Position numbers and translations under genes: made by a program. DNA of 64,000 nucleotides from a virus (lineage: Duplodnaviria; Heunggongvirae; Uroviricota; Caudoviricetes), in the IMG/VR virus record IMGVR_UViG_3300048672_000527, positions 100,770 through 164,769 of that record; one strand, 5' to 3'. Below, piece after piece: positions 15,142-30,333 of this stretch (positions are counted from its first letter, which is position 1; each line of letters opens with the position of its first letter). The notes under the pieces were generated by a model. It was given only the letters and a program-made list of their open reading frames with translations, did no database searches and was not told the origin of the DNA.

Positions 15142-15154
15142 ATTGGGGTTAATT

Positions 15155-15715
15155 ATGACAAGAATTTTGGCATTGGACGTAGGCGGAACGCCTCGGAGTT
15201 GGATTAGTTTAGAACAAGCGGCATGTTATCATGCCACAAACTCTGTTGCATGGCAATGGGGCGAAGAAAAATTTGTGCTACGTGGTGGATACCAAAACGA
15301 TGGTACTCAATCTGTGATTGAAACATCTAGTATTATCGCCGTCAAGTCACAGAGTGGCTTCAGTATGGATAAGATTCATAAGGAAGTTGTTTTGAGTAAC
15401 CGAACACTGTTCGGTCGTGACCGTAACACTTGTGCTTACTGTGGTCGTGAATTCGGTCCTAGTAAGCTCAGTCGGGATCATATTCACCCGCGTAGTCGTG
15501 GTGGATTGGATGTGTGGACGAACGTTGTAACTGCTTGCCGTGATTGTAACTGCGACAAGGATGACCAAACGTTGAAGGAAGCAGGTATGGAACTTTTGTA
15601 CCTACCTTATGTTCCCAGCCACGCTGAAAAGTTACTTTTGGAAGGACACAAGATATTAAATGACCAGATGATATTTCTTAAGGAAAGATTACCTAAGAAT
15701 TCAAGACTCAATTAA
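15155..15715 (+). CDS. HNH endonuclease (free-standing, homing-type)
   Basis: CAYCG..DHIHP..GG..N..CRDCN HNH motif; sits at edge of tRNA array. Confidence 0.8.
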   Translation: MTRILALDVGGTPRSWISLEQAACYHATNSVAWQWGEEKFVLRGGYQNDGTQSVIETSSIIAVKSQSGFSMDKIHKEVVLSNRTLFGRDRNTCAYCGREFGPSKLSRDHIHPRSRGGLDVWTNVVTACRDCNCDKDDQTLKEAGMELLYLPYVPSHAEKLLLEGHKILNDQMIFLKERLPKNSRLN

Positions 15716-16271: not shown

Positions 16272-16345
16272 AGGGTGTTGGTGTAATGGCAACACGGCGG
16301 TCTCCAAAACCGTTGTTAAAGGTTCGAGTCCTTTACGCCCTGCCA
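16272..16345 (+). tRNA. tRNA-Trp (CCA)
   Basis: acceptor AGGGTGT/ACGCCCT, loop CTCCAAA, T-arm GGTTCGAGTCC, CCA end. Confidence 0.8.
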
Positions 16346-16357
16346 AATATGAATTAT

Positions 16358-16432
16358 GCCCCGGTCGTCTAGTGGCTAGGATATCTGCCCTTCAAGCAGA
16401 GGAAGTGGGATCGAAACCCATTCGGGGTACCA
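16358..16432 (+). tRNA. tRNA-Glu (TTC)
   Basis: D-loop TCTAGTGGCTAGGA like E. coli tRNA-Glu; loop CCTTCAA. Confidence 0.75.
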
Positions 16433-16440
16433 AGATATGT

Positions 16441-16524
16441 GGAGCATTGGCAGAGAGGACGATTGCGTCTGACTGTAAATCAGATCTTAACAGCACGGTG
16501 GTTCGAATCCATCATGCTCCACCA
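16441..16524 (+). tRNA. tRNA-Tyr (GTA), class II
   Basis: acceptor GGAGCAT/ATGCTCC, loop CTGTAAA, long variable arm, TTCGAAT T-loop. Confidence 0.75.
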
Positions 16525-16620
16525 AATTTTCTGGGGCGGTACCATACAGTGTATCGAAATATGGAGTCACTTGTCGATAACGGCAGTGTAAAATCTTCCG
16601 TTCCTCGGGATCGTTATTAT
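16525..16620 (+). pseudogene. degenerate tRNA remnant (fragments ..GGGCGGTACCA and CTCGGGATCGTTATTATGGG)
   Basis: resembles 3' parts of neighbouring ATCGTTA-type tRNAs but no cloverleaf. Confidence 0.25.
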
Positions 16621-16696
16621 GGGCTGGTAGTGATAGAGGGCTACACGTCGCACTTGCAATGCGAAGATCGGGGATCGTTACCCCGCCGGTCCACCA
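16621..16696 (+). tRNA. tRNA-Ala (TGC); non-canonical T-loop ATCGTTA
   Basis: acceptor GGGCTGG/CCGGTCC, AC stem TCGCA/TGCGA loop CTTGCAA. Confidence 0.7.
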
Positions 16697-16822
16697 ATAA
16701 TTTGGGGCAGATGGTTCATTAAAATTATCCTCGAGGGGTGTTACTGATGGGTTCGAAACCAGAACATAACATTGTAAATAATTTTATTGTGGGTTCGATT
16801 CCCGCAGGCTCCACCAAATAAT

Positions 16823-16906
16823 GCGCCGGTGGCTAGTGGAAATTTGGTACACCTAACGGTCTTAGAAGCCGTGCTTTTGAGGGTTCGAGTCCCTCCCGGC
16901 GCACCA
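16823..16906 (+). tRNA. tRNA-Leu (TAG)
   Basis: perfect acceptor GCGCCGG/CCGGCGC, loop CTTAGAA, T-arm GAGGGTTCGAGTCCCTC; enlarged D region. Confidence 0.6.
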
Positions 16907-16912
16907 CTTGAT

Positions 16913-16986
16913 GGGGTTGAAGCTTTAAAGTGAAGCAACTGGCTTTTAACCAGTAGAAGAGGGGCCAGTACCCTCCAGCCCTACCA
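16913..16986 (+). tRNA. tRNA-Lys (TTT); T-loop GCCAGTA, D-loop lacks GG
   Basis: acceptor GGGGTTG/CAGCCCT, AC ACTGG-CTTTTAA-CCAGT. Confidence 0.65.
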
Positions 16987-17083
16987 ATTAGTAGAATGCA
17001 TGGTTGCCATCACCACAATGCGAATTGGCCTACAGCACTGTTTGATGTTTTAGTGTAGAATAAGAAAACATCAAGAATTTAAT

Positions 17084-17157
17084 GCCGCTTTAGTTAAAAA
17101 GTATAACATCGTGCTGATAACGCGAAGTCGGAGGAGCGTTACCTCCCGGCGGTACCA
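17084..17157 (+). tRNA. tRNA-Ile (GAT); T-loop AGCGTTA
   Basis: AC TCGTG-CTGATAA-CGCGA, D GTTA/TAAC, CCA end. Confidence 0.65.
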
Positions 17158-17163
17158 AATAAT

Positions 17164-17258
17164 GGAGTTAGTTTCCCGGAATGTGCCCGGGACCCGCATG
17201 TTGAGCGGTGACCTAAGACGTTGGGTAGCATAGGTTAAAGTCCTTTCAAACTCCACCA
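17164..17258 (+). tRNA. tRNA-like, abnormally long (95 nt), identity undetermined
   Basis: GGAGTTA ... AAACTCC-A-CCA acceptor pairing; internal arms not resolved. Confidence 0.3.
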
Positions 17259-17266
17259 ATAAATTT

Positions 17267-17343
17267 CTGGCATTCATAATAACTGGATAATTGACAAGGC
17301 TACGAACCTTGGGATGGGAGTTCGAATCTCTCATGCCGGACCA
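17267..17343 (+). tRNA. tRNA-Arg (ACG)
   Basis: AC CAAGG-CTACGAA-CCTTG; T-arm GGGAGTTCGAATCTCTC; CCA. Confidence 0.8.
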
Positions 17344-17451
17344 TGATGCACAGCATCGCTTTATGCTGTGGTAGAATAGCCTCTGGATACATGTTAACAA
17401 GCTTCTCAAACTACAACCAGAGTCCTCGCAAAAGGACATAGCAAGAATTTT

Positions 17452-17526
17452 GGTCTCAAAGTGTTCATGGACGCACACGACACTGTCACTGTCGAAGAGG
17501 GGGATCGTTACCCCCTGGGACCGCCA
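17452..17526 (+). tRNA. tRNA-Asp (GTC); T-loop ATCGTTA
   Basis: loop CTGTCAC identical to E. coli tRNA-Asp; acceptor GGTCTCA/TGGGACC. Confidence 0.75.
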
Positions 17527-17534
17527 ATTTTTAT

Positions 17535-17613
17535 TCCGTAAAACCCGAGCATGGTGCATGGGCGTGACTGTTAATCACTGGTTAGGCTGGTTCGATCCCA
17601 GCATGCGGAGCCA
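17535..17613 (+). tRNA. tRNA-Asn (GTT)
   Basis: loop CTGTTAA, T-arm GCTGGTTCGATCCCAGC, discriminator G like E. coli tRNA-Asn. Confidence 0.7.
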
Positions 17614-17704
17614 ATTGCGTAAGTTGCTAACATTGAAATATGTCGTTAAAGAGTAAAGAAGTTGGTATTATGGAATGCACATAATACGCGAATTTCAAAT
17701 ATTT

Positions 17705-17775
17705 CTCCGCGAAGCGTTACGGTAGCGTTCCTGACCTGGAATCAGGGGGCGGTGGTTCGACTCCACCCGCGGTGA
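17705..17775 (+). tRNA. tRNA-like (anticodon loop CCTGGAA, Pro-like?); CCA not encoded
   Basis: T-arm GGTGGTTCGACTCCACC, acceptor CTCCGCG/CGCGGTG; irregular D-arm. Confidence 0.4.
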
Positions 17776-17927
17776 CAAAATGAATGGGTTAGCAAGAGCC
17801 CAAGAGTAATCGCCGACCATGAGCTGCACGTGGTGTAAACAAGACCGATCATCTTGTCAACAACGGCGGGGTAAAAGACCCAAGAAACAGCACCGAATTG
17901 AAAAGAATGAAAATTCATTCTTATATG

Positions 17928-18000
17928 TGGGTATTAGTTCAATAGTAGAATATTCGTCTGTGAAACGAAAGACCAGGGAGCGTAACCCGGTACCCAACCA
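17928..18000 (+). tRNA. tRNA-His (GTG); T-loop AGCGTAA
   Basis: acceptor TGGGTAT/GTACCCA, AC TTCGT-CTGTGAA-ACGAA. Confidence 0.65.
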
Positions 18001-18008
18001 AAATATTT

Positions 18009-18084
18009 GCCTCTTAAGCTAATCAAGTGAAAGCGATGGACTGAAAATCCGTAGAGACTGGCGCGATACCAGTAGGAGGCACCA
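18009..18084 (+). tRNA. tRNA-Phe (GAA); T-loop CGCGATA
   Basis: acceptor GCCTCTT/AGGAGGC, AC ATGGA-CTGAAAA-TCCGT. Confidence 0.7.
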
Positions 18085-18098
18085 AAATGCAAAAAATT

Positions 18099-18174
18099 GC
18101 TCGCGAAGTATTAGCTGGTGGTATGCTTGTTTCGTAATCAAGAGGATCGAGTTCGAGGCTCGACGTGAGCTCCA
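18099..18174 (+). tRNA. tRNA-Thr (CGT), tentative
   Basis: acceptor GCTCGCG/CGTGAGC, T-arm TCGAGTTCGAGGCTCGA, loop TTCGTAA. Confidence 0.6.
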
Positions 18175-18175
18175 G

Positions 18176-18204
18176 TTTACTTTTATTTGTGGGTGTGTTA
18201 TAAT
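18176..18204 (+). promoter_or_regulatory. early promoter with -10 inside stem-loop (GTGTT-ATAATA-AACAC), drives the 1-kb non-coding block
   Basis: TTTACTTTTATTTGTGGGTGTGTTATAAT. Confidence 0.65.
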
Positions 18205-19248
18205 AAACACTTCAACAAATTACTAACATTAAAGATTATTTTGTGATTTTTAATGTTAGTATAAAATAAGATTTAACGAGGCGTAGCTCGTGGCATTGAC
18301 GAAAGTCAGTGTTGTGTGATAAGTGTAGTGATACACCCAAAGATGTGATGCTTACATAGCACCGCCTAGCAATAGGTCACTCTACGCAAGCCTGCTCAGA
18401 CTCGTGAGGGTCCCATCATGGATAAGACCTGTGGTGGTAACAGTGAAGCAAGTGTAATGGAAAGAACATTGGCTTAGACGCCCGCAAGGGGAACGTCAGT
18501 CGATGGAGAGTAACAGGTGGTGCTGACCTCATTACAAACCAACTTGGCAACTGGTATGAGAAAAGGTAGTCAGAGTAATCCGAGGAGTCGCATCCAAGGG
18601 TGGCTGGCAGTTTGAATGGTTTATGGTGGTACGCGAAAGCCGAGACCCAACATGAATCGTGAAAGACGACTGAGTAGCTCGCGAGGCAAAAGGTACGTGG
18701 TGTGTTGTATTTCGTGGAACAAAATTTTGCGAAGCAACTGAGACTGCACATCACAGTAAGTTATTTGTAGCATAATGGTAATGCAATTTCCTGTTAAGAA
18801 ATACACTGTTGGTTCAAATCCAACCAAAATTTAAAACGCAAAGACAGTCTCGGTAGTATGTGAAAGACATCTAAAACTTTGATCCGTAAGGATAACGAAG
18901 TCTAGTGAAACTCGCAAGGTGACATTAGTTTATGGTGGAAACTTCATAGATGGTTAGCGCCGTCGAACAGCTCGCAAGGTTGGTGGGGAATGATACTGTA
19001 GAATAGCATATTACGATAAGTCTACTGCCTGACTTTCAAAACGGCGATGTTAACGGTTTACGGATACGCGAAAGCTGAGACCCCGTGGAAGAGGAGCGAA
19101 GTGTGACTCGCAAGGTTACATTATAATGCACGAAGAACCGTTGTAACGACTGTATTCTCAGGTCGCTAAAGTGTTTATTATATTGAGCAAATTATAAGCA
19201 AGTGTTTAATATATTGTACATTTTAATGTTTTTTAACTGGAGTTTATT
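18205..19248 (+). ncRNA. candidate large structured non-coding RNA (~1 kb)
   Basis: no plausible ORF either strand; GC higher than flanks; repeated modules (CTCGCAAGG x4, ACGCGAAAGCYGAGACCC x2, GTTTATGGTGG x2); GNRA hairpins. Confidence 0.35.
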
Positions 19249-19464
19249 ATGAGTTTTAAGCGTGATGAAAATAACCGTTTTGTTCCAACGAAACATTTCA
19301 AGATGACTAAGTCGGCAAAGCGATTGGTAGCTGCAATTCAAAGTAAAGAATTGCGTGATCACTTTAAGGGTATGATGCAACAAGCAATTATGCAGTCATT
19401 TGAAGTGATTGAAAAGAAGAAAAAGAATCCGTTGACCGGCAAGGTTGAGGCGGAAGCCGTGTAA
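19249..19464 (+). CDS. hypothetical small basic protein
   Basis: ORF with RBS GGAG; inside tRNA array. Confidence 0.45.
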   Translation: MSFKRDENNRFVPTKHFKMTKSAKRLVAAIQSKELRDHFKGMMQQAIMQSFEVIEKKKKNPLTGKVEAEAV

Positions 19465-19472
19465 ATATTACA

Positions 19473-19554
19473 GCGGGCGAGTGGAACAGATATATAAACC
19501 ATTCCGGTCTCATAAGCCGGCGATACTAGGTGCGACTCCTAGGCTCCGCATCCA
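19473..19554 (+). tRNA. tRNA (CAT anticodon: Met/Ile2-type), atypical D region
   Basis: AC CCGGT-CTCATAA-GCCGG; T-arm CTAGGTGCGACTCCTAG. Confidence 0.45.
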
Positions 19555-19559
19555 ATAAT

Positions 19560-19633
19560 TCTCGTTTAGCTCAATGGTGGAGCACCTCCTCTATGGAGAG
19601 CGGCCAGTGGATCGGTACCACTAACGGGAGCCA
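19560..19633 (+). tRNA. tRNA, anticodon uncertain (TAT?); T-loop ATCGGTA
   Basis: acceptor TCTCGTT/AACGGGA, D GCTC-AATGGTG-GAGC, CCA. Confidence 0.5.
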
Positions 19634-19638
19634 AATTT

Positions 19639-19714
19639 GGTCATATAGTGTAGAAGTTCTGCACAAGAGATTCATAACCTCTAAGTCTAGGAGCGTTACC
19701 TAGTATGACCACCA
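19639..19714 (+). tRNA. tRNA-Met (CAT); T-loop AGCGTTA
   Basis: perfect acceptor GGTCATA/TATGACC, loop TTCATAA. Confidence 0.65.
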
Positions 19715-19852
19715 CCGAGTATAACTCGAAGACTTGAGTGCTAATCTACACACTCTGAGGAATGTTCACCAAGAAACAGAACGAACAGTCTTCCAAAACT
19801 TTATTTGGCCGCGAAAGCGTCACCGGCTTAGCATAAGATCACAGGTGAATAT

Positions 19853-19927
19853 GCGGGATAAGTGTTGGTGATTACATTTCTGACTTCCAATCAGACGTAT
19901 GGGGTTTGACTCCCCAATCCCGCTCCA
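19853..19927 (+). tRNA. tRNA-Gly (TCC)
   Basis: perfect acceptor GCGGGAT/ATCCCGC; AC TCTGA-CTTCCAA-TCAGA as in T4 tRNA-Gly. Confidence 0.8.
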
Positions 19928-20029
19928 TTTTCAATGTACATACAAACCTCGAATAATTAGAGTCACAATCTGATTTAATTTGAGTAAATGTAGTTCATTG
20001 TTGTTTGTTTAAATGTACATCGAAAATGG
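19925..20029. repeat. 17-bp inverted repeat (CCATTTTCAATGTACAT / ATGTACATCGAAAATGG) flanking 70 nt
   Basis: seen directly; overlaps 3' end of tRNA-Gly and precedes CDS 20041. Confidence 0.5.
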
Positions 20030-20040
20030 ATAAATAATAG

Positions 20041-20247
20041 ATGCTTGATACAGAAAACAATAGACGTCTTGCTAGTAAATTATCGGATGCAGTTGATGAA
20101 TGCATTCTGATGTATGAACGCGGCAATGATAAACTTGCTATTGAAACACTATCCCGTCTTGGGTTTAGCGCAATGAGTATCCATCGAATATTAATGAATC
20201 CCGATCATCGTAGAAGATATATCAACGCGATGATCGAAGGTAATTAG
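20041..20247 (+). CDS. hypothetical small protein
   Basis: ORF inside tRNA array; stop TAG abuts next tRNA. Confidence 0.4.
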   Translation: MLDTENNRRLASKLSDAVDECILMYERGNDKLAIETLSRLGFSAMSIHRILMNPDHRRRYINAMIEGN

Positions 20248-20329
20248 CTGAAGTCGCATAGCGGCAATTGCAACGCTCTTGTAAGGCGTCGGGAAACCTA
20301 CGTGAGTTCGAGTCTCACCTTCAGCACCA
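20247..20329 (+). tRNA. tRNA-Thr (TGT)?, with extended variable region
   Basis: perfect acceptor GCTGAAG/CTTCAGC, T-arm GTGAGTTCGAGTCTCAC, loop CTTGTAA. Confidence 0.55.
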
Positions 20330-20334
20330 AATAT

Positions 20335-20423
20335 GGAGTTATGCGACGATGGCGTCAAGCGGTCTTGAAAACCGTGCTACTGTTGATGAAACGGTAAGGG
20401 TTCGATTCCTTGTAGCTCCTCCA
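20335..20423 (+). tRNA. tRNA-Ser (TGA), class II
   Basis: acceptor GGAGTTA/TAGCTCC, AC GCGGT-CTTGAAA-ACCGT, long variable arm. Confidence 0.7.
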
Positions 20424-20425
20424 GA

Positions 20426-20521
20426 ATATCAGTAGTTTAAAGAGGTGCAAAAGATAAATCCTCGTAGCAAAACAGAGTTAGAGCTCACTCGTTGATGGTT
20501 CAAGCCCATCCTGGTATGCCA
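20426..20521 (+). tRNA. tRNA-like, abnormally long (96 nt), identity undetermined
   Basis: acceptor ATATCAG/CTGGTAT, T-arm GATGGTTCAAGCCCATC, G-CCA end. Confidence 0.35.
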
Positions 20522-20527
20522 ATATAA

Positions 20528-20601
20528 GCCCTTTTATTTCAATAGAAGAATAGATCTTTGGTAAGGATCAGACAGAGGAGCGTAACCTCTAAAGGGCACC
20601 A
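20528..20601 (+). tRNA. tRNA-Thr (GGT); T-loop AGCGTAA
   Basis: perfect acceptor GCCCTTT/AAAGGGC; loop TTGGTAA. Confidence 0.65.
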
Positions 20602-20607
20602 GAATAT

Positions 20608-20696
20608 GCGGATGTGGCGGGAATTGGAAGACCCGGCTGCCTCAAAAGTAGTTGATCGCGAAAGCGTTGTGAGTTCGAGTCTCACCATCCGCACCA
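20608..20696 (+). tRNA. tRNA-Leu (CAA), class II
   Basis: perfect acceptor GCGGATG/CATCCGC; loop CTCAAAA; variable arm with GCGAAAGC hairpin. Confidence 0.7.
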
Positions 20697-20839
20697 AGAT
20701 AATCCATATCTGGTTTAAGGTAAAGTCACAACCAGAAAGTTTCAATAACTGCGATATTAACTTCGGTTAGTATAACAGGTTGATTCAAAACCTTAAGTGA
20801 ACGAGTTTGGTAGTGGAAGCCAAACAAGATGTATTTGGA

Positions 20840-20925
20840 GACACGTTGGCTGAGAGGACGAAGGCAACAGTCTGCAAAACTGAAGTAGAGATACCACAGG
20901 GGTTCGAATCCCCTACGTGTCTCCA
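20840..20925 (+). tRNA. class-II-length tRNA, anticodon unresolved (GCA?)
   Basis: perfect acceptor GACACGT/ACGTGTC; T-arm AGGGGTTCGAATCCCCT. Confidence 0.5.
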
Positions 20926-21061
20926 AATACATTTATTGCGTGTGCACGCGGATACCGCCCTGACGAGTTAGTCAACCAAGACACAGTTCGTCGTACCGTT
21001 GCGCGTGGCAGTCGAAAGATCAGTTCATAACTTGGATATTATGGGCGGCAATAAGTAATAT

Positions 21062-21149
21062 GGAAGGTTGGGTGAGCGGTTAAACCAGCGGTTTGCTAAA
21101 CCGCGACTCTGAAAGGGGTCCATCAGTTCGAGTCTGATACCTTCCGCCA
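21062..21149 (+). tRNA. tRNA-Ser (GCT), class II
   Basis: perfect acceptor GGAAGGT/ACCTTCC; AC GCGGT-TTGCTAA-ACCGC. Confidence 0.75.
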
Positions 21150-21153
21150 ATAT

Positions 21154-21245
21154 GCGAGTGAGACTTGATAGTCAGAGAGGTCTTATAAACCTTTTAGCGC
21201 CAGATTAGCGTTCTTGAGTGGGTTTGATTCCCACCACTCGTACCA
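21154..21245 (+). tRNA. tRNA-like, 92 nt, anticodon loop CTTATAA (TAT/TAA?), irregular D/variable arms
   Basis: acceptor GCGAGTG/CACTCGT; T-arm GTGGGTTTGATTCCCAC. Confidence 0.4.
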
Positions 21246-21261
21246 AGTTAAATAGTTTTAT

Positions 21262-21337
21262 TCCTCGGATGCGGAAAAGTGATGCAACTGGCTTTGAACC
21301 AGTCCAAAAGTAGGGGCAGTACCTACCCGGGGTGCCA
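21262..21337 (+). tRNA. tRNA-Gln (TTG); T-loop GGCAGTA
   Basis: AC ACTGG-CTTTGAA-CCAGT; acceptor with first-pair mismatch. Confidence 0.65.
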
Positions 21338-21345
21338 ATTATAAT

Positions 21346-21422
21346 CCGTGTGTAGCGCAGTCTGGTAGCGCATCTGCTTTGGGAGCAGAGGGTCGCAGGT
21401 TCGAATCCTGCTACACGGACCA
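21346..21422 (+). tRNA. tRNA-Pro (TGG)
   Basis: canonical: D GCGC-AGTCTGGTA-GCGC, loop TTTGGGA, T-arm GCAGGTTCGAATCCTGC. Confidence 0.85.
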
Positions 21423-21528
21423 GTTTAAATATGCAATATAAGTTTTGTTGGTGTGGTCAGATTATTTGGAATGATACCAATGTTTGCCCATGCTGCGGTA
21501 GAAAAGTGTTTTGGAAACAAAGATTCTT

Positions 21529-21584
21529 TAGTCCCGCCAGACAGTTCGATTCTGTTGGCTCTTCTGGGTGAGAGGGCGGGACTA
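21529..21584 (+). ncRNA. tRNA-like element S1: 10-bp helix (TAGTCCCGCC/GGCGGGACTA) enclosing a canonical T-arm (ACAGTTCGATTCTGT)
   Basis: seen directly; not a complete cloverleaf. Confidence 0.35.
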
Positions 21585-21589
21585 AGGGA

Positions 21590-21662
21590 TTTTAACACCC
21601 ATGATCTAGGTTCGATTCCTGGCTGTCGCGAGGTCCGATGGGTTCGGGCATGGGTGTTAAAA
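21590..21662 (+). ncRNA. tRNA-like element S2: 14-bp helix (TTTTAACACCCATG/CATGGGTGTTAAAA) enclosing T-arm-like hairpins
   Basis: 73 nt, tRNA-sized but closing helix far too long for an acceptor stem. Confidence 0.35.
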
Positions 21663-21670
21663 TTCTTTAT

Positions 21671-21744
21671 GCGTGCTTAGTTTAATGGTAGAACCAGACG
21701 TTGCCAACGTTTAAGCAGGAGTTCGATTCTCCTAGCCCGCACCA
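21671..21744 (+). tRNA. tRNA-Gly (GCC)
   Basis: D GTTT-AATGGTA-GAAC, loop TTGCCAA, T-arm AGGAGTTCGATTCTCCT. Confidence 0.8.
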
Positions 21745-21847
21745 GTTAAAGGTTCACATAGGCATCAGACCACGTCCCAGTGCCTTGAATATGTGTTAAC
21801 ATTGTGTAGCTTGGTCTAATGACTACACAGAGCCCTAGTAGATATTT

Positions 21848-21922
21848 GCGATGTTAGCTTAGTGGTAAAGCAGATGCCTCTAAAACATTTGATCGAGGGT
21901 TCGATCCCCTCACATCGCGCCA
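21848..21922 (+). tRNA. putative suppressor tRNA, anticodon CTA (reads UAG)
   Basis: perfect acceptor GCGATGT/ACATCGC, D GCTT-AGTGGTA-AAGC, AC GATGC-CTCTAAA-ACATT, T-arm GAGGGTTCGATCCCCTC. Confidence 0.55.
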
Positions 21923-21986
21923 GATTTATAACCCTAATTGAAAGGACGTGTCATGTTGTAGATGCCGAACAAAGATCCTCCATAAT

Positions 21987-22000
21987 AAACCTGCAGGTTT
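21987..22000. repeat. perfect 14-nt palindrome AAACCTGCAGGTTT
   Basis: seen directly; possible terminator or processing site after tRNA block. Confidence 0.4.
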
Positions 22001-22037
22001 AATTAAATGTGCACGTTTATTATTTTTGGAGAATCAA

Positions 22038-22352
22038 ATGGAAAAGACTTTTTATATCAGTAAAGAACAATTTAATGCGGTAACAGCCGCTTGGAAGAAT
22101 AGTAAAGATCATACTGCCGCTGAGCATATCGTTTATAACGTATTGCGCAACAAACCGGTTGATAATGGCTTTACGGAGAAACATAAAAACATTCAAGGAT
22201 GTGATTCTTGGTACGGTTTTAATCAAGCATTAAGTAATGCAAGATGGATGTGTAAACTCCAAAATGATAGTAAGAAGCAACACTTTAAACAACGTTTCGG
22301 TATTGACATGCCGGAAGATATTGTTTCAAAGTTTGAGGGAGTTCAGAAATGA
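22038..22352 (+). CDS. hypothetical protein
   Basis: ORF 21948 trimmed to ATG after GGAG. Confidence 0.5.
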   Translation: MEKTFYISKEQFNAVTAAWKNSKDHTAAEHIVYNVLRNKPVDNGFTEKHKNIQGCDSWYGFNQALSNARWMCKLQNDSKKQHFKQRFGIDMPEDIVSKFEGVQK

Positions 22353-22651
22353 ATCCCTACATTTATATGTTCGTGCGACGGGACTTGAGTGTCCCTCAAC
22401 AAATAGTACAGACTGCTCACGCGGTCGATGAAATAGGAAAACGGTATCAATCCGGTAATGAAAATTATATGGTTTTGATAGATGTTAAAAATGAACAATC
22501 ATTAGTTGAAGTATCAGAATCCCTTAAGGAAAAGGATATAGAACATGAGATGTTCTTTGAACCCGATATAGACTCATATACAGCAATCGCAACACGTCCA
22601 TTAATTGGTGATGAGCGTATGAGTTTGAAAGGTTATAGGTTAATGCGTTAA
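22349..22651 (+). CDS. PTH2-like peptidyl-tRNA hydrolase (putative)
   Basis: FVRRDLSVPQQIVQTAHAVDE resembles PTH2 VVRTDL..AAQCSHAA motif; RBS GAGGGAG. Confidence 0.55.
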   Translation: MNPYIYMFVRRDLSVPQQIVQTAHAVDEIGKRYQSGNENYMVLIDVKNEQSLVEVSESLKEKDIEHEMFFEPDIDSYTAIATRPLIGDERMSLKGYRLMR

Positions 22652-22676
22652 CTTTTATTTGCCACTGTGTTATAAT
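22648..22676 (+). promoter_or_regulatory. early promoter; -10 inside stem-loop GCCACT..AGTGGC; drives tRNA-Lys
   Basis: TTAACTTTTATTTGCCACTGTGTTATAAT. Confidence 0.55.
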
Positions 22677-22685
22677 AGTGGCTAT

Positions 22686-22759
22686 GGGCTTCAAACATTG
22701 TGGCGATGTAATCGGCTCTTAACCGATAAAGCAGAGTTCAATTCTCTGGAGGCCTACCA
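22686..22759 (+). tRNA. tRNA-Lys (CTT)
   Basis: D ACAT-TGTGGCG-ATGT, AC ATCGG-CTCTTAA-CCGAT, T-loop TTCAATT. Confidence 0.75.
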
Positions 22760-22761
22760 AG

Positions 22762-22790
22762 TTTACTTTTATTATTCTTTGTGGTATAAT
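22762..22790 (+). promoter_or_regulatory. early promoter placed for leaderless transcript (ATG 7 nt after -10)
   Basis: GTTTACTTTTATTATTCTTTGTGGTATAAT TATATC ATG. Confidence 0.65.
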
Positions 22791-22796
22791 TATATC

Positions 22797-23132
22797 ATGA
22801 AAAAATTGATCTCAATCCTCACTTTAATGCTAACAGCTTGCGCTAGCGTACAAAAAATTGATACTGTCGAACTTGTGAAACCTACACGTTTCACTGAAGA
22901 ATTCACTATGGTCGTTAAGGTCGTAGAATTCAGAAAAATGGAACAACTGTGTTCTAAACTCGGTACGGGTTATAGCTCTAATGGTTGTTCTGTAACAAAT
23001 CTGGATACCAAAACGTGTACGATTTATGTTCCTGAAGTATTGCAGATGGATGATACTAAAGGTATGAAAATCTGGGGTCATGAATTAATGCACTGTGTTT
23101 ATGGTAAATACCATCACACTGAGGATATGTAA
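22797..23132 (+). CDS. small lipoprotein with HExxH motif (putative Zn-metallopeptidase-like)
   Basis: signal peptide + lipobox LTAC; HELMH near C-terminus. Confidence 0.55.
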   Translation: MKKLISILTLMLTACASVQKIDTVELVKPTRFTEEFTMVVKVVEFRKMEQLCSKLGTGYSSNGCSVTNLDTKTCTIYVPEVLQMDDTKGMKIWGHELMHCVYGKYHHTEDM

Positions 23133-23139
23133 AATTAAT

Positions 23140-23222
23140 GCGGGTTTGGGGGAATTGGTAGTCCCAGCAGACTTAAAATCTGCCGTTAATTCGTATCGGT
23201 TCGAGTCCGATAACCCGCACCA
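23140..23222 (+). tRNA. tRNA-Leu (TAA), class II
   Basis: acceptor GCGGGTT/AACCCGC; AC GCAGA-CTTAAAA-TCTGC; T-arm CGGTTCGAGTCCG. Confidence 0.8.
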
Positions 23223-23228
23223 AATAAT

Positions 23229-23304
23229 CTGGCGTTCGTATAATGGATCAATACATTAGGCTTCTACCCTTTTGATGGGGGTTCGATTCCCTCACGCCGG
23301 ACCA
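23229..23304 (+). tRNA. tRNA-Arg (TCT)
   Basis: D GTAT-AATGGAT-ATAC-like as in T4 tRNA-Arg; loop CTTCTAC. Confidence 0.7.
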
Positions 23305-23305
23305 A

Positions 23306-23436
23306 TTGTTTTATAAGAATATCTCTGTTACGGTCACGTCTGCCGCCATAGGCAGAGACGGATCGGTAGCTGGCACTGCGAAAGTCTAGTCCTGCCAGGG
23401 ATGAAGATGATATTTCAGAGCATTCTTATAAAACAA
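23306..23436. repeat. structured element bracketed by perfect 15-bp inverted repeat TTGTTTTATAAGAAT / ATTCTTATAAAACAA (~100 nt interior with hairpins)
   Basis: seen directly; no ORF, no cloverleaf. Confidence 0.5.
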
Positions 23437-23441
23437 TTTAT

Positions 23442-23516
23442 GCCTCGTTAGCTCAGAAGTAGAGCAACACCCTTACAAGGTGAAGGTCGGGATTGCAAAA
23501 TTCTCACGAGGTACCA
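23442..23516 (+). tRNA. tRNA-Val (TAC); 9-nt T-loop
   Basis: D GCTC-AGAAGTA-GAGC; loop CTTACAA; acceptor GCCTCGT/ACGAGGT. Confidence 0.65.
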
Positions 23517-23518
23517 AT

Positions 23519-23677
23519 TTAGAAGCAGCTGGTAGAACAGCAACGGGTTCGGAGGTCTAGGGTCCGTGTCGTATGATGAGGTGAACGGTAGACGCAAGTC
23601 ACACATCTAAAAGCCCATGAAGGCGATGACAATTTGGTTATGAGCACAGCGCAATGTCTCAGAATCCAAACTTCTAA
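23519..23677. repeat. ~150-nt structured element bracketed by inverted repeat ATTTAGAAG / CTTCTAATT
   Basis: seen directly; internal hairpins; no CCA end. Confidence 0.35.
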
Positions 23678-23683
23678 TTAATT

Positions 23684-23758
23684 GCTCGGGTAGCTCAGAG
23701 GAAGAGCACTTGGTCGACATCCAAGAGGTCGGGATTTCGAAATTCCCACCGAGTACCA
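23684..23758 (+). tRNA. tRNA-Val (GAC); 9-nt T-loop
   Basis: D GCTC-AGAGGAA-GAGC; AC CTTGG-TCGACAT-CCAAG. Confidence 0.7.
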
Positions 23759-23918: not shown

Positions 23919-24278
23919 ATGAAAAAAGATACCTATATTTTTAATGCCATCATCAATAACGTAGTTGATGGCGATACCGTAGATGCTATTGTTGATCTTG
24001 GTTTCTATGTTAATTACAATACGCGTCTTCGTCTCTATGGTATTAATACACCAGAACTTCATGCTACTGATCCAGCTGTTAGAGCTAAGGCCTTAGAAGC
24101 AAAGAACTATGTAATTAGTAAACTTCCAGTTGGTACTGCTGTAACACTACAGACATTTGGACAAGAGAAGTATGGCCGCTTTCTTGCCAAAGTATTCATT
24201 AGTGACTATAATCTAAACGATGATCTGGTGGCTCAAGGACTTGCTAGCATTTACTTCGGTAGCGGCCCCAAAACTTAA
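23919..24278 (+). CDS. staphylococcal-nuclease-like thermonuclease (SNase)
   Basis: DGDTVD ... RLRLYGINTPE SNase catalytic motif. Confidence 0.8.
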   Translation: MKKDTYIFNAIINNVVDGDTVDAIVDLGFYVNYNTRLRLYGINTPELHATDPAVRAKALEAKNYVISKLPVGTAVTLQTFGQEKYGRFLAKVFISDYNLNDDLVAQGLASIYFGSGPKT

Positions 24279-24314: not shown

Positions 24315-24839
24315 ATGGAAACATTAGTTCATCATCTAAAGTCAAGGCATTGTGATCTAACGTTACACCGCCCTTGGCTTGACGAAGAAAATAATGTGGC
24401 CACGTTCCCACTCTGGAATCTCAGTGGCCAGATGGTCGGATACCAACAGTATCGACCCGATGCATCTAAGACACAAAATAATGATCCTAAGTTGGGTCGT
24501 TATTTCACACTCCGCAAGCAACCTACGCTTGCTTTATTCGGAGTTGAGTCTCTTCACCTAACACCCAAAGTTGTATTCTTGACGGAAGGTGTTTTTGACG
24601 CTTGTCGATTAACCGAACGTGGGGTTAGTGCTCTGGCTGTTCTGTCGTGTGATGTGAACCGTGAGTACAGGGGTTGGCTCCGTGCTCTGAATCGCCGAGT
24701 TGTTGCTGTATGCGATAACGACGAGGCGGGGCGGAAATTGGCTAAGTTTGGTGATGAAGCAGTTTTCATGGCAGAAAAGGACTTGGGTGATTCTAGTGAC
24801 GAAGAAGTCACAGAACTTTTGAAAAAGTATGGATTATGA
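24315..24839 (+). CDS. Toprim-domain protein
   Basis: VFLTEGVFDA..(E) and VVAVCDNDEAGRKLA (DxD) Toprim motifs. Confidence 0.65.
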   Translation: METLVHHLKSRHCDLTLHRPWLDEENNVATFPLWNLSGQMVGYQQYRPDASKTQNNDPKLGRYFTLRKQPTLALFGVESLHLTPKVVFLTEGVFDACRLTERGVSALAVLSCDVNREYRGWLRALNRRVVAVCDNDEAGRKLAKFGDEAVFMAEKDLGDSSDEEVTELLKKYGL

Positions 24840-25084
24840 AAAAGCCTTATTGGATTAAAGTTGGTCTTACAGATGAAACAAACGAGTTTGAGGGTCACCA
24901 AGGACATTGGGCGGATTGTTATTTCAGTAATTCCACATATAAAGCAATCATGTGGTATCTGCGTGGACCACTCATGGAAAATACTGGATGGGAAATTCGT
25001 GAGATGACAGATGAAGAATTGAAGCAGTATCCAGAAGCATTGGAATTTCAAAAATTTTTGATTGAAGAATACGGTGAATTCTGA
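24836..25084 (+). CDS. hypothetical protein
   Basis: ORF with ATGA overlap. Confidence 0.5.
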   Translation: MKKPYWIKVGLTDETNEFEGHQGHWADCYFSNSTYKAIMWYLRGPLMENTGWEIREMTDEELKQYPEALEFQKFLIEEYGEF

Positions 25085-25449
25085 TGGCCAACATTGTTCT
25101 GAAAATGCTCTCAAGGAAGCAGTCCGGTAAATGTTACTATTGCGATTGTAGTATGGTTTTCTATAACCGTGTGGGCGGTTCTAATCTTGATAATTCTGCT
25201 ACGATAGAACATCTCCGTGACAAATGGGATACAAAAGGTAAGAAGGATTGGTCAGAAACTAATCTAGTAGCAGCTTGCAATAAATGTAATAGTCACCGCG
25301 GTTCGGTTCGCAATCGAATTGCACGGGCCTATTACCAAAGGCAAATGATGGAGCGCGGTGTTAAAGGTACAGCCTCTAGCATTAAAAGCTCAATTCTATA
25401 TGACCGTTACGGTTCAGTACCACAAGAATTATTCGGAGTATCGTTATGA
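25084..25449 (+). CDS. small HNH endonuclease
   Basis: CYYCDC..IEHL..N..AACNKCNSHRG. Confidence 0.75.
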   Translation: MANIVLKMLSRKQSGKCYYCDCSMVFYNRVGGSNLDNSATIEHLRDKWDTKGKKDWSETNLVAACNKCNSHRGSVRNRIARAYYQRQMMERGVKGTASSIKSSILYDRYGSVPQELFGVSL

Positions 25450-26962: not shown

Positions 26963-27571
26963 ATGCGGTTGATTCCTCAGATTGTAGCAAAAGCCCGGTT
27001 TCGTTATGAAGTTGACGCTGAGGTGCGGGCTTATCATAATTTCGAGCATGCAACACGCGTAGCTCAAAATTGCTTGACACTGAATGAAAACGCAGCTGAT
27101 GAACTTCTATATGCGGCGTTGTATCATGATGCTGTGTATATTCCCGGTTCCGGTGAAGATGCCAACGAACGATGCTCGGCAGCTGCATTTAAGAAGGATT
27201 GGAACACGTATTGTAAAAATTCTCTTCACAGAGTATCAGTTCTCGATGTTGAATCTGTGTGCCAGTTAATTAGAAATACAAGCATTGATATGCATTTAAC
27301 GCATATGCGTCTGCAAGGCAATCTGGCCACATTGCTGGATGCTGATCTAGAATCTCTGGCAACTAATTATTATAAGTTTACTTTAAATCAAGAAGCGATT
27401 ATAATTGAACAAGGTGGTGAAGTTAATAAAGAGAATTTGCGCAAATGTGCAGAATTCCTGAGACAATTCCTTCAGGTACGACCATCAATCTACCACACAG
27501 ATAAAGCACGTGAGCTTTGGGAAAAACAAGCTCGTGAAAATATTTTGAAATTATTGGACGAAACTCAATGA
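26963..27571 (+). CDS. HD-domain phosphohydrolase
   Basis: HNFEHATRV .. ALYHDAVY HD motif. Confidence 0.7.
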   Translation: MRLIPQIVAKARFRYEVDAEVRAYHNFEHATRVAQNCLTLNENAADELLYAALYHDAVYIPGSGEDANERCSAAAFKKDWNTYCKNSLHRVSVLDVESVCQLIRNTSIDMHLTHMRLQGNLATLLDADLESLATNYYKFTLNQEAIIIEQGGEVNKENLRKCAEFLRQFLQVRPSIYHTDKARELWEKQARENILKLLDETQ

Positions 27572-28149
27572 CAACTTTTGTAGCAAGTGATATTCACTTT
27601 AACCACCTGAACATTCTGAAGTACTGCCCGCACCGGGGTGGGCCTGATACCGACTGGGATAAGGTTGCTAAGATGAATGAACTGATTATCAGCAACTGGA
27701 ACTCGGTAGTTAAGCCTGAAGATGACATTTTTATCATCGGTGATGTCGCCATGGGTCAAATCGAAAAAGCCCCGGTACTGATTTCTCGTCTGAACGGTCT
27801 GAAATATCTGGTCAAGGGTAATCACGACAAGACGCTGACAAAGAAACAAGCCGACGGAACTCGTTATAGTGATGGTCTGTTCGCATCGGTTCATGATTAT
27901 CTAGAGACCTTTCATAAAGTAGACGGAAAGAAGCACTTCCTGTGTATGAGCCATTTTCCTATGTCACATTGGAACGGTATGAATCAAGGTTCTATGATGA
28001 TTCATGGACACCTACATGGTAGCCCATCCGGGTTGACGGGCCGTATTAAGGACGTTGGTATTGACACTAATAATCTGTTCCCGTATGTTCTGGATGATGT
28101 GGTTCGCGAACTACTAAAAATCAAGGTAATCCGAGATCACCATGAATGA
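27568..28149 (+). CDS. calcineurin-like metallophosphoesterase
   Basis: SDIHFNH, GDV, GNHD motifs. Confidence 0.8.
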   Translation: MTTFVASDIHFNHLNILKYCPHRGGPDTDWDKVAKMNELIISNWNSVVKPEDDIFIIGDVAMGQIEKAPVLISRLNGLKYLVKGNHDKTLTKKQADGTRYSDGLFASVHDYLETFHKVDGKKHFLCMSHFPMSHWNGMNQGSMMIHGHLHGSPSGLTGRIKDVGIDTNNLFPYVLDDVVRELLKIKVIRDHHE

Positions 28150-28201
28150 TGATTTCAGGACAAAAATAGCAGAAATGCTGCAATGATGACGTAATATCGT
28201 T

Positions 28202-30060: not shown

Positions 30061-30333
30061 ATGTTTACAGCTTATTTGATCGGTTTCTTTGCAATTTTGG
30101 CAGTAGCTGCAATTCGTAATCTTCAAGAAAATATCCGTGTTATCTTGGCACTGGCTATTTTCTGGCCTGTGACCGTATTGTTTACTATTTTTGATTTATC
30201 TCTGACTGCAATTGGTTGGGATTTTGACTTTAAAACTAGCACTAATTTCTTTGGTTTTCGTAAACCATTAAATAAAACCGGTTTTGCCATTACCATCATG
30301 AAGATTGAGTTTCAATTCTGGAGCAAGAAATGA
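30061..30333 (+). CDS. small membrane protein
   Basis: two hydrophobic helices. Confidence 0.5.
   Translation: MFTAYLIGFFAILAVAAIRNLQENIRVILALAIFWPVTVLFTIFDLSLTAIGWDFDFKTSTNFFGFRKPLNKTGFAITIMKIEFQFWSKK

What the first reader, a model, noticed from the sequence alone, without database searches (positions are those of the whole stretch)
21848..21922. Putative amber-suppressor tRNA (anticodon CUA)
This 75-nt tRNA has a near-textbook cloverleaf. It has a perfect 7-bp acceptor stem, a D-arm GCTT-AGTGGTA-AAGC and a T-arm GAGGG-TTCGATC-CCCTC, with discriminator G and an encoded CCA. The 7-nt anticodon loop reads CTCTAAA, which puts CTA at positions 34-36 and would decode UAG. TAG is rarely used as a stop codon here, but at least one ORF (20041..20247) ends in TAG. 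Natural suppressor tRNAs in phages are associated with stop-codon recoding or with modulation of late gene expression.
Basis: partly seen in the sequence, partly recalled or inferred. Interest (0 to 1): 0.65.

Follow-up and report, generated by a model that had tools for sequence, protein, structure and literature searches.

The report
Amber-suppressor tRNA in standard-code phage
A T4-like phage carries a well-formed tRNA that should read the UAG stop codon, but the phage uses the ordinary genetic code, so this is one more example of a known and still unexplained kind of phage suppressor tRNA.

Summary
Window 21848..21922 (+) is a canonical 75-nt tRNA with anticodon CUA (ARAGORN; Rfam 66.2 bits). 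It lies in an array of about 34 tRNAs in the early region of a T4-like myovirus known only from metagenomes.

The suggested link to recoding is not supported. About 87 kb of this phage species was sampled, and no gene needs an in-frame TAG. Sheath, tube, portal, prohead protease, scaffold and major capsid genes are intact and end in TAA. TAG is the rarest stop (6 of 93 gene calls) and mostly overlaps a downstream ribosome-binding or promoter-like signal.

Its closest relatives are other CUA tRNAs in unrelated large phages (RAS14/CM1, DLP_6, XacN1, Xoo-sp13). They form a phage-associated subfamily with a GCG acceptor top and C31·A39, and their stems covary strongly. The mismatch occurs in 15% of sampled phage CUA tRNAs and 0.4% of sense tRNAs. 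No isotype could be assigned, so the inserted amino acid is unknown. tRNA-Gln is the only isotype missing from the array.

Published work on XacN1 and Summit describes the same puzzle. Verdict: a real, probably functional suppressor tRNA, a new member of a known kind, of moderate to low interest.

The parts
21848..21922 (+). tRNA with anticodon CUA (putative amber suppressor), 75 nt with encoded CCA
   Evidence: ARAGORN; Rfam RF00005 at 66.2 bits; identical in a 98.4%-identical strain from another sample (L001)
21880..21882 (+). anticodon CTA (positions 34-36) in the 7-nt loop CTCTAAA (21878..21884)
   Evidence: sequence; ARAGORN structure drawing
21877..21885 (+). C31 (21877) and A39 (21885), the unpaired C.A that closes the anticodon loop. 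It is the hallmark of a suppressor-specific subfamily.
   Evidence: alignment A1; 8 of 55 sampled phage CUA tRNAs against 4 of 1084 sense tRNAs
16272..23758 (+). Co-directional array of about 34 tRNA genes that holds the CUA tRNA. It covers 19 amino acids and has no tRNA-Gln.
   Evidence: ARAGORN and Rfam
45083..45439 (+). 118-aa hypothetical gene ending in TAG. Readthrough would add 12 aa. The TAG lies within TAGTTTACTTTTATT, a promoter-like motif.
48084..48266 (+). 60-aa hypothetical gene ending in TAG within TAGGAGaaaattATG. Readthrough would fuse it in frame to the next gene, 48276..48467.
53596..53811 (+). 71-aa hypothetical gene ending in TAG. Readthrough would add 13 aa. The TAG lies within TAGTTTACTTTTATT.
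1..158 (+). 3' end of a 58-aa gene that starts before the window and ends in TAG. Readthrough would add 5 aa.
   Evidence: L015 gene call 9838-10014
28202..29269 (+). tRNA nucleotidyltransferase (CCA-adding enzyme), part of the phage's tRNA maintenance gene set
   Evidence: PHROG 2244, E = 9.5e-95; Pfam PolyA_pol

Best explanation
This is a genuine phage-encoded tRNA with anticodon CUA. It belongs to a widespread, phage-associated lineage of amber-suppressor tRNAs marked by a G1-C72/C2-G71/G3-C70 acceptor top, the loop CUCUAAA and a C31.A39 mismatch.

Shown:
- It lies in an array of about 34 tRNAs in the early/replication region of a T4-like myovirus.
- In every part of the genome that could be sampled, the phage uses the standard genetic code.
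- The phage is little exposed to UAG readthrough. UAG ends only about 6% of its genes, mostly small ones where the TAG doubles as part of the next gene's ribosome-binding site or a promoter-like motif. All sampled replication and structural genes end in UAA or UGA.

Inferred:
- It is co-transcribed with the array and processed like its neighbours.
- A host aminoacyl-tRNA synthetase charges it. The amino acid is unknown. From E. coli precedent for CUA tRNAs, Gln or Lys through U35 are the obvious candidates.
- It competes with release factor 1 at UAG codons.
- Its role is therefore not to decode recoded phage genes. It matches the state already described for standard-code phages such as XacN1 and Summit, and for standard-code relatives of recoded phages. 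In that state a suppressor is tolerated because UAG stops are few. Its benefit may be to neutralise amber mutations, to act on host UAG-terminated genes, or to precede or follow recoding. The data do not distinguish between these.
For: - Real tRNA with CUA at 34-36.
- T4-like phage: gp43 polymerase, clamp loader, UvsX and gp41; polymerase 42% identical to cyanomyoviruses.
- Its best matches among isolated phages are themselves annotated suppressor tRNAs. RAS14/CM1 match at 80% over the full length. Others are DLP_6, XacN1 (two copies), Xoo-sp13 and PhT2, plus UUA and UCA versions in phiM12 and Atu_ph07.
In bacterial genomes only 9 of 120 pattern hits are real CUA tRNAs.
- Its nearest neighbours all belong to the GCG/C31.A39 class.
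- Family covariation: 17 of 21 pairs have compensatory changes; 91.8% of cells are paired against 31-42% in slid controls; 0 of 500 shuffles reach the observed values.
- C31.A39 is specific to suppressors: 8 of 55 against 4 of 1084, p = 7.6e-9.
- No recoding.
- Late genes are intact and end in TAA: sheath, tube, portal, protease, scaffold, major capsid, PAAR.
- The 10 kb beyond the window is also densely called under code 11.
- TAG stops: 2 of 92 against 66 of 643 in T4-like relatives by the same ORF tiling, p = 0.011; 6 of 93 gene calls.
- Literature: XacN1 has two CUA tRNAs, 18 amber stops among 592 genes and no targets found (PMC5852040). For Summit the purpose is stated as unknown (PMC9022506). 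Suppressor tRNAs occur in standard-code relatives of recoded phages (bioRxiv 10.1101/2021.08.26.457843).
Against: - Nothing here shows expression, aminoacylation or readthrough.
- With independent gene calls, TAG depletion is not significant against T4-like relatives (4 of 81 against 66 of 643, p = 0.16).
- Other viral contigs that carry CUA tRNAs and look standard-code keep about 11-12% TAG stops, so avoiding TAG is not a general correlate.
- Roughly 40% of the genome was not sampled (about 87 kb of a contig of at least 146 kb). Baseplate and tail-fibre genes are missing from the sample, so local recoding there is not excluded.
- The strain comparison has no power: zero differences in 75 nt has P = 0.27 by chance.
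- The isotype cannot be assigned (margin 0.6 bits), so whether any synthetase charges it is an open question.
- The anticodon stem is weak (G.U on top, C.A at the bottom) and could reduce activity.
Confidence: 0.7

Rival explanations
1. The tRNA supports TAG-to-amino-acid recoding (code-15-like) of some phage genes, typically late or lysis genes, as in crAss-like, Lak and other recoded phages.
For: About half of predicted code-15 phages encode a Sup-CTA tRNA (PMC11210395). In that literature recoding concentrates in structural and lysis genes. Roughly 40% of this genome was not sampled. 11 of 92 viral loci with the same tRNA type gain more than 8% ORF coverage when TAG is read as sense.
Against: No in-frame TAG has coding signal on both sides except at a true gene boundary. 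The coverage gain is only 2.5%. Sheath, tube, portal, two prohead-core-sized genes, protease, scaffold, major capsid, PAAR and a tail-tube-like gene are intact and end in TAA. Glyco_hydro_19 and Hydrolase_2 lysis-type genes are intact. TAG is still used as a real stop.
Confidence: 0.05
2. It drives programmed readthrough of one or a few specific phage genes to make C-terminally extended or fused isoforms. Candidates are 48084..48266 fused to 48276..48467, and Hydrolase_2 fused to the ClpP-like protein just beyond the window.
For: Two TAG stops are followed, after exactly 9 nt and in frame, by the next gene.
Against: Both downstream genes have their own ribosome-binding site and ATG (TAGGAGaaaattATG and TAGGGGATTGATATG). 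The 63-aa downstream protein matches its PHROG family from residue 1 of both protein and profile, so it is a standalone gene elsewhere. About one third of adjacent gene pairs share a frame by chance, so 2 of 7 is what chance predicts. The other extensions are 5-13 aa of low-complexity sequence. The XacN1 and Summit authors looked for such targets and found none.
Confidence: 0.1
3. It is an inactive relic. It would be a tRNA gene with a CUA anticodon that is not charged or not used, carried along in a mobile tRNA array.
For: The function of such tRNAs in standard-code phages is unknown. No isotype can be assigned. The anticodon stem is weak. The array is flanked by homing-type nucleases, so it may spread as a block.
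Against: The cloverleaf is perfect, all tertiary positions are conserved, and its Rfam score is the second best in the array. Many neighbouring sense tRNAs are far less canonical. The family keeps CUA, the loop and C31.A39 across 80 distinct sequences while all four stems covary.
Confidence: 0.1
4. The tRNA decodes something other than, or in addition to, UAG. One route is UAA through C34.A wobble favoured by the weakened anticodon stem. Another is a modified C34.
For: Work cited in PMC13092985 reports that E. coli tRNA-Trp(CUA) variants with an unpinned top anticodon-stem pair read UAA efficiently. In this family the 31-39 pair is never formed and the 27-43 pair is unpaired in 10 of 31 members.
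Against: TAA is this phage's commonest stop and ends all sampled structural genes, so efficient UAA readthrough would harm the phage. In this tRNA 27-43 is a G.U pair, not a mismatch. There is no evidence for any modification.
Confidence: 0.04

Closest known systems
CUA 'tRNA-Sup/TERM' genes of isolated standard-code large phages: Stenotrophomonas RAS14/CM1 and DLP_6, Xanthomonas XacN1 (two copies) and Xoo-sp13, Acinetobacter PhT2, Stenotrophomonas Summit
   Same: Same anticodon and the same loop CUCUAAA. All but PhT2 have C31.A39 followed by C40. RAS14/CM1 are 80% identical over the full length. All sit among other phage tRNAs. The genomes are annotated under the standard code, and published searches found no readthrough targets.
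   Different: The host phage here is a T4-like virus known only from metagenomes, with about 42% polymerase identity to any isolate. The discriminator is G, whereas A is usual in the subfamily. The array lacks tRNA-Gln, while XacN1 covers all 20 amino acids.
Suppressor tRNAs of TAG-recoded (code 15) phages: crAss-like, Lak and others (Borges et al. preprint; Cook et al. 2024)
   Same: A phage-encoded CUA tRNA placed among early genes. The proposed evolutionary route is few TAG stops, then acquisition of a suppressor, then recoding. This phage fits the intermediate stage.
   Different: No in-frame TAG was found in any sampled gene, including the structural and lysis-type genes where recoding normally concentrates. 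No RF2 or aaRS gene was seen in the window.
Laboratory amber suppressors of E. coli and T4: supE (tRNA-Gln CUA), su7 (tRNA-Trp CUA), T4 psu1+ (tRNA-Ser)
   Same: CUA anticodon. The loop CUCUAAA equals the tRNA-Trp loop with C35 changed to U (from my own knowledge of the E. coli sequences). The expected mechanism is competition with RF1.
   Different: Those are single-base mutants of sense tRNAs. This one does not resemble any isotype: Trp is outside the top eight, and Gln scores 29.2 bits against a best score of 37.7. It belongs to an old, diversified CUA lineage.
tRNA-Pyl (ARAGORN's label)
   Same: Anticodon CUA and the same 7-nt loop sequence.
   Different: The tRNA has a 5-nt variable loop, a canonical D loop with G18 G19, a canonical T loop TTCGA and a 5-position anticodon stem. 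No pyl genes were seen in the window. It is not a tRNA-Pyl.

Membership tests
tRNA (Rfam RF00005) | Cloverleaf scoring above the curated gathering threshold | tested here: met
   66.2 bits against a gathering score of 29, with full model coverage 1-71. ARAGORN calls it as well.
tRNA (Rfam RF00005) | Conserved tertiary nucleotides (U8, A14, G18 G19, U33, T54 T55 C56, A58, R15-Y48) | tested here: met
   Read directly from the sequence and the ARAGORN drawing.
Amber-suppressor tRNA (Sup-CUA) | CUA at positions 34-36 of a 7-nt anticodon loop, with U33 and a purine at 37 | tested here: met
   Loop C32 U33 C34 U35 A36 A37 A38 at 21878..21884.
Amber-suppressor tRNA (Sup-CUA) | Is aminoacylated and inserts an amino acid at UAG in vivo | not testable with these tools
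   Needs reporter assays or analysis of charged tRNA. The isotype could not be assigned.
TAG-recoded (code 15) phage system | In-frame TAG codons inside phage genes, especially structural and lysis genes | tested here: not met
   One candidate in 64 kb, and it is a gene boundary. Nine or more late genes and two lysis-type genes are intact. Roughly 40% of the genome was not sampled.
TAG-recoded (code 15) phage system | Low coding density under code 11 that recovers when TAG is read as sense | tested here: not met
   ORF tiling covers 84.8% under code 11 and gains 2.5%. T4-like relatives without a suppressor gain 0.9%, and clearly recoded loci gain more than 8%.
tRNA-Pyl | Atypical fold (3-nt variable loop, 6-bp anticodon stem, short D loop without G18 G19) together with pylS/pylBCD genes | tested here: not met
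   Canonical type I tRNA with a 5-nt variable loop and G18 G19/TTCGA. No such genes among the annotated window proteins.
Recent anticodon mutant of a sense tRNA (supE-like Gln, su7-like Trp) | With the anticodon masked, the body is clearly classified as the parent isotype | tested here: not met
   Per-isotype HMMs with 70% held-out accuracy give Val 37.7, Lys 37.1, Gly 33.6 and Gln 29.2 bits, and Trp is not in the top eight. The margin is 0.6 bits, against a median of 11.9 for correct calls. The nearest sequences are all CUA tRNAs. The classifier is home-made, so this test is moderate in strength.
   All are present in the window tRNA. 50 of 80 distinct C31.A39 CUA tRNAs share the GCG top.
   The window tRNA has G73, as do 4 of those 67 members, DLP_6 and XacN1 copy b.

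The most novel reading that the evidence does not exclude
The GCG/C31.A39 CUA tRNAs are a dedicated, phage-specific suppressor lineage that belongs to no isotype. Standard-code phages would keep it as a tool for host takeover or counter-defence. It would force readthrough of host or defence genes that end in UAG, possibly feeding ribosome-rescue pathways (this phage also encodes a tmRNA). The phage's own essential genes would escape by ending in UAA or UGA. The conserved anticodon-stem mismatch would tune how strongly, or at which stop codons, suppression occurs.
Probability: 0.15. Interest if true: 0.7.

Novelty: new member of a known kind. Interest (0 to 1): 0.35.

Why it matters
CUA tRNAs are usually taken as a flag for stop-codon recoding. 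This case shows that the flag alone is not enough. A T4-like phage with a textbook CUA tRNA uses the ordinary code in all of its sampled replication, structural and lysis-type genes.

It adds an example from an uncultured T4-like lineage to an unsolved question that isolate papers have already raised: what does an amber suppressor do in a phage that has nothing to suppress?

The family-level results may help in choosing constructs for experiments. The tRNA type is found mainly in phages. Its stems covary. The C31.A39 mismatch is nearly absent from sense tRNAs. No isotype can be assigned.

None of this is unprecedented, and no new mechanism is shown.

Tried and rejected
- **Alternative fold with a sense anticodon.** Neither ARAGORN nor Rfam gives one. 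A register shifted by one (A26-U44 as a pair, 9-nt loop) is conceivable but leaves CUA in place.
- **tRNA-Pyl.** Rejected on structure.
- **Recoding.** Rejected for all sampled regions.
- **Orthologue comparison in relatives.**
  - T4-like relatives found through gp41 (50-58% identity) have no tRNA array at this position.
  - gp23 relatives in IMG/VR are at most 80% identical.
  - P0009, a portal candidate, belonged to a different phage with gp23 75% identical.
  - Only near-identical strains carry the orthologue, and their differences give no statistical power.
- **Exact-protein lookups that found nothing:**. One search returned only the identical strain.
- **Isotype assignment.** Nearest-neighbour comparison and home-made isotype HMMs were both ambiguous.
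- **'Missing tRNA-Gln goes with CUA tRNAs' as a general rule.** Rejected, because tRNA-rich viral loci with CUA tRNAs have tRNA-Gln about as often as not.
- **'Suppressor-carrying standard-code phages purge TAG stops' as a general rule.** Rejected, because they keep about 11-12%.
- **C31.A39 as a unique feature.** Rejected, because it is a recurrent minority variant (15%) among phage CUA tRNAs.
- **Dedicated promoter or terminator for the tRNA.** None found.
- **N-terminal part of the primase.** Not found.
- **Host identity.** Not determined.

Full report
**1. The observation**

Window 21848..21922 (+) is a 75-nt tRNA. ARAGORN calls it at exactly these coordinates with anticodon CTA. Rfam's tRNA model scores it 66.2 bits against a threshold of 29, the second-best tRNA in the region.

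These are the 7-bp acceptor stem, the D arm GCTT/AGTGGTA/AAGC, the T arm GAGGG/TTCGATC/CCCTC, discriminator G, an encoded CCA, and the loop CTCTAAA with CTA at positions 34-36 (21880..21882). The conserved tertiary nucleotides are in place.

The anticodon stem is G.U, A-U, U-A, G-C and then an unpaired C31.A39 next to the loop (ARAGORN drawing). ARAGORN's 'Pyl' label only reflects the anticodon. The variable loop, D loop and T loop are those of an ordinary type I tRNA. A thermodynamic fold alone recovers just the acceptor and T arms. That is common for tRNAs and yields no alternative anticodon.

**2. The genome**

All genes in the window are on the + strand, and GC content is 41%. The proteins identify a T4-like myovirus:
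- replication and recombination: gp43 polymerase, clamp and clamp loader, UvsX, gp41 helicase, RegA, RNase H, DNA ligase
- RNA and tRNA handling: RnlA-type RNA ligase, CCA-adding enzyme
- NAD salvage enzymes

The polymerase is only about 42% identical to any isolated phage, and the nearest are cyanomyoviruses. The phage is known only from metagenomes:
- Logan SRR35439987 contigs are 100% identical to the window.
- A JGI contig of 59,225 nt (Ga0213917_1000017, which is IMGVR_UViG_3300021437_000024) is about 98.4% identical.
- An ENA contig of 145,830 nt is about 98.6% identical.

The CUA tRNA is identical in the JGI strain. That carries no weight, because zero differences in 75 nt has a chance probability of 0.27.

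**3. The tRNA array**

The tRNA lies in a co-directional array at 16272..23758. ARAGORN, Rfam and six tRNAs read by eye give about 34 tRNA genes for 19 amino acids. No tRNA-Gln was found in the window or in the flanks that could be reached, about 87 kb in all. This does not hold generally. Other tRNA-rich viral loci with CUA tRNAs have tRNA-Gln about as often as not, and XacN1 covers all 20 amino acids. There is no dedicated promoter or terminator next to the tRNA. Several promoter-like TTTACT-N17-TATAAT sites lie within the array.

**4. Is the phage recoded?**

A codon-usage score was computed on both sides of all 583 TAG triplets on the + strand. Only one, at 48264, has coding signal on both sides. 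There the TAG lies in TAGGAGaaaattATG. The downstream 63-aa protein matches its PHROG family from residue 1, and an independent gene caller splits the region into two genes. It is a gene boundary.

Reading TAG as sense raises ORF coverage by 2.5%.

Late genes lie just upstream of the window and were reached in contigs of the same species. Tail sheath (659 aa), tail tube, portal (574 aa), two small genes, prohead protease, scaffold and major capsid protein (422 aa) are all full length and end in TAA. So are an Acb1-like protein, a PAAR protein and a tail-tube-like protein. Ten kilobases beyond the window's 3' end are also densely called under the standard code, and they include lysis-type enzymes.

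Recoding is therefore not supported. Roughly 40% of the genome, including baseplate and tail-fibre genes, could not be sampled.

**5. TAG as a stop**

The same ORF tiling gives 2 of 92 ORFs of at least 80 aa ending in TAG in the window. In T4-like helicase relatives, where no suppressor tRNA was seen, the figure is 66 of 643 (p = 0.011; for TAG against TGA, p = 0.0017).

With independent gene calls the figure is 4 of 81, which is not significant on its own (p = 0.16). It becomes 6 of 93 when the region beyond the window is added. TAG is the rarest stop, but the evidence for active purging is only suggestive.

Of the seven TAG stops examined, counting the doubtful ORF 20041..20247, five overlap a downstream signal:
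- TAGGAG once and TAGGGG twice, each in front of the next gene's ATG
- TAGTTTACTTTTATT twice, which matches the recurring promoter-like motif

Readthrough would add 5, 12 or 13 residues in three cases. In two cases it would fuse the gene in frame to its neighbour. Chance alone predicts about a third of neighbours in the same frame.

Other viral contigs that carry CUA tRNAs and look standard-code keep about 11-12% TAG stops. Few TAG stops is therefore not a general companion of such tRNAs.

**6. Relatives of the tRNA**

A sensitive BLAST against isolated phages returns, as the best full-length matches, tRNAs that are themselves annotated as suppressors:
- Stenotrophomonas phages RAS14 and CM1 (80% identity)
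- DLP_6
- Xanthomonas phages XacN1 (two copies) and Xoo-sp13
- Acinetobacter phage PhT2
- a UUA version in Sinorhizobium phiM12 and a UCA version in Agrobacterium Atu_ph07

Nearly all share the arm G30 C31 | C U N N A A A | A39 C40 (alignment A1).

So does the version with U31-A39, and the version with C31-G39 gives 94 hits. In a sample with positions 31 and 39 left free, the 31-39 pair is U-A in 22, A-U in 17, C.A in 8, U.G in 5 and C-G in 3 of 55 CUA tRNAs. Among 1084 sense tRNAs in the same loci, C.A occurs 4 times. The difference gives p = 7.6e-9.

In 596 Gb of bacterial genomes, only 9 of 120 pattern hits are real CUA tRNAs, so the type is associated with phages.

The window tRNA's nearest neighbours are all of the C31.A39 class. 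50 of the 80 distinct members share its GCG acceptor top. The usual discriminator is A, whereas the window tRNA has G.

An alignment of 31 members shows strong covariation. 17 of 21 pairs have compensatory changes. 91.8% of cells are paired against 31-42% when partners are slid. No shuffle reaches the observed values. The 31-39 position is never paired, and 27-43 is unpaired in 10 of 31. The members were selected by a pattern that fixes the loop and C31/A39, so only the other stems are informative.

This is a functional-looking tRNA lineage that has kept CUA through much divergence. It is not a recent pseudogene.

**7. Which amino acid?**

Isotype HMMs were built from the sense phage tRNAs with anticodons masked. 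They classify 70% of held-out tRNAs correctly, with a median winning margin of 11.9 bits when correct.

For the window tRNA they give Val 37.7, Lys 37.1, Gly 33.6, Thr 31.0 and Gln 29.2 bits, a margin of 0.6. The whole C31.A39 class splits between Lys, Gly and Arg. The U31-A39 class leans to Trp, as expected for derivatives like su7.

The amino acid is unresolved. From established E. coli work, recalled and not tested here, CUA tRNAs are often charged by GlnRS or LysRS through U35. The G1-C72/C2-G71/G3-C70 acceptor resembles the glycine identity set except for the discriminator. No aaRS or release factor gene was seen in the window.

**8. Comparison with what is known**

- About half of predicted code-15 phages carry Sup-CTA tRNAs (PMC11210395).
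- Borges et al. describe suppressor tRNAs in standard-code relatives of recoded phages. They propose a path from few stops, to suppressor acquisition, to recoding.
- The XacN1 paper reports two CUA tRNAs, 18 amber stops among 592 genes and no readthrough targets.
- The Summit announcement states that the purpose of its suppressor tRNA is unknown.
- Work cited in PMC13092985 links weakened anticodon stems in CUA-anticodon tRNAs to altered stop-codon reading.

The present case fits this known but unexplained category.

**9. Verdict**

The tRNA is real and very probably a functional amber suppressor of a phage-specific lineage. The phage is not recoded in any sampled region. The function in a standard-code phage remains open.

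Novelty: a new member of a known kind. Interest: 0.35.

Noticed in passing
window 18697..19164 (+): Rfam GOLLD RNA (RF02032) at 175 bits (gathering 150) inside the tRNA array, with tRNA-Asn (18760..18833) embedded in it. There are no differences between the two strains over its 468 nt, although overall divergence is 1.7% (P about 0.0003 by chance).
   Followed up: partly
window 5348..5620 (+): Rfam permuted (two-piece) tmRNA, RF04321, at 82.7 bits (gathering 47) with the full model matched. It lies next to an isolated tRNA-Met (4924..4998). A phage-encoded ribosome-rescue RNA alongside an amber suppressor is an interesting combination.
   Followed up: no
window 16913..16986, 17084..17157, 17928..18000, 18009..18084, 20528..20601, 23442..23516: Six tRNAs of the array (Lys-UUU, Ile-GAU, His-GUG, Phe-GAA, Thr-GGU, Val-UAC) lack the canonical G18 G19 and T-loop TTCGA. 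Their T loops include CCAGTAC, AGCGTAA, GCGCGAT and TGCAAAA. ARAGORN misses most of them at default settings. The CUA tRNA, by contrast, is fully canonical.
   Followed up: partly
window 16272..23758 and flanks (L586, L724): tRNA-Gln is the only isotype absent from the array of about 34 tRNAs, and from the roughly 87 kb of the phage that could be sampled. This is not a general feature of other arrays that contain a CUA tRNA.
   Followed up: yes
window 15143..15715, 23919..24278, 24315..24839, 25084..25449: The array is bracketed by an HNH endonuclease and an SNase-like nuclease. Immediately after it comes only the Toprim half of a gp61-type primase (it matches positions 148-337 of a 435-position profile), followed by another HNH gene. 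The N-terminal primase part was not found. The array may be a mobile insertion between gp41 and gp61.
   Followed up: partly
window 26963..29269, 30330..30749, 45896..48087: A tRNA repair and maintenance gene set: two phosphoesterases, a CCA-adding enzyme, a small AAA_33 (Pnk-like) kinase, and an RnlA-type RNA ligase followed by a metallophosphoesterase.
   Followed up: partly
window 48084..48467; L724 18128..19129: Two gene pairs are separated by TAG plus exactly 9 nt and lie in frame. One pair is the 60-aa and 63-aa genes. The other is Hydrolase_2 and a ClpP-like protease. Amber suppression would fuse each pair. The downstream genes have their own ribosome-binding site and ATG, and the frequency matches chance.
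   Followed up: partly
window 18176..18204, 22648..22676, 22762..22790, and after stops at 363, 45439, 53811: A recurring promoter-like motif, (G)TTTACT-N17-TATAAT, often with TG before the -10 element. The string TTTACTTTTATT follows several stop codons directly. It resembles T4 early promoters.
   Followed up: no
window 20840..20925 (tRNA-Cys) and 21062..21149 (tRNA-Ser): Strain differences cluster here, with 8 substitutions in tRNA-Cys and 4 in tRNA-Ser-GCU, while most other tRNAs have none. Several ARAGORN calls have odd lengths: Cys 86 nt, Thr-UGU 83 nt and 'Ile-UAU' 92 nt. The last of these and Ser-UGA score weakly as tRNA-Sec-like in Rfam.
   Followed up: no
L015 2767..3297; window 38462..41194 and 43017..43484: Candidate counter-defence genes: an Acb1-like protein next to gp23, an NAD salvage pair (NMNAT/Nudix and NAMPT), and a Macro-domain protein.
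   Followed up: no
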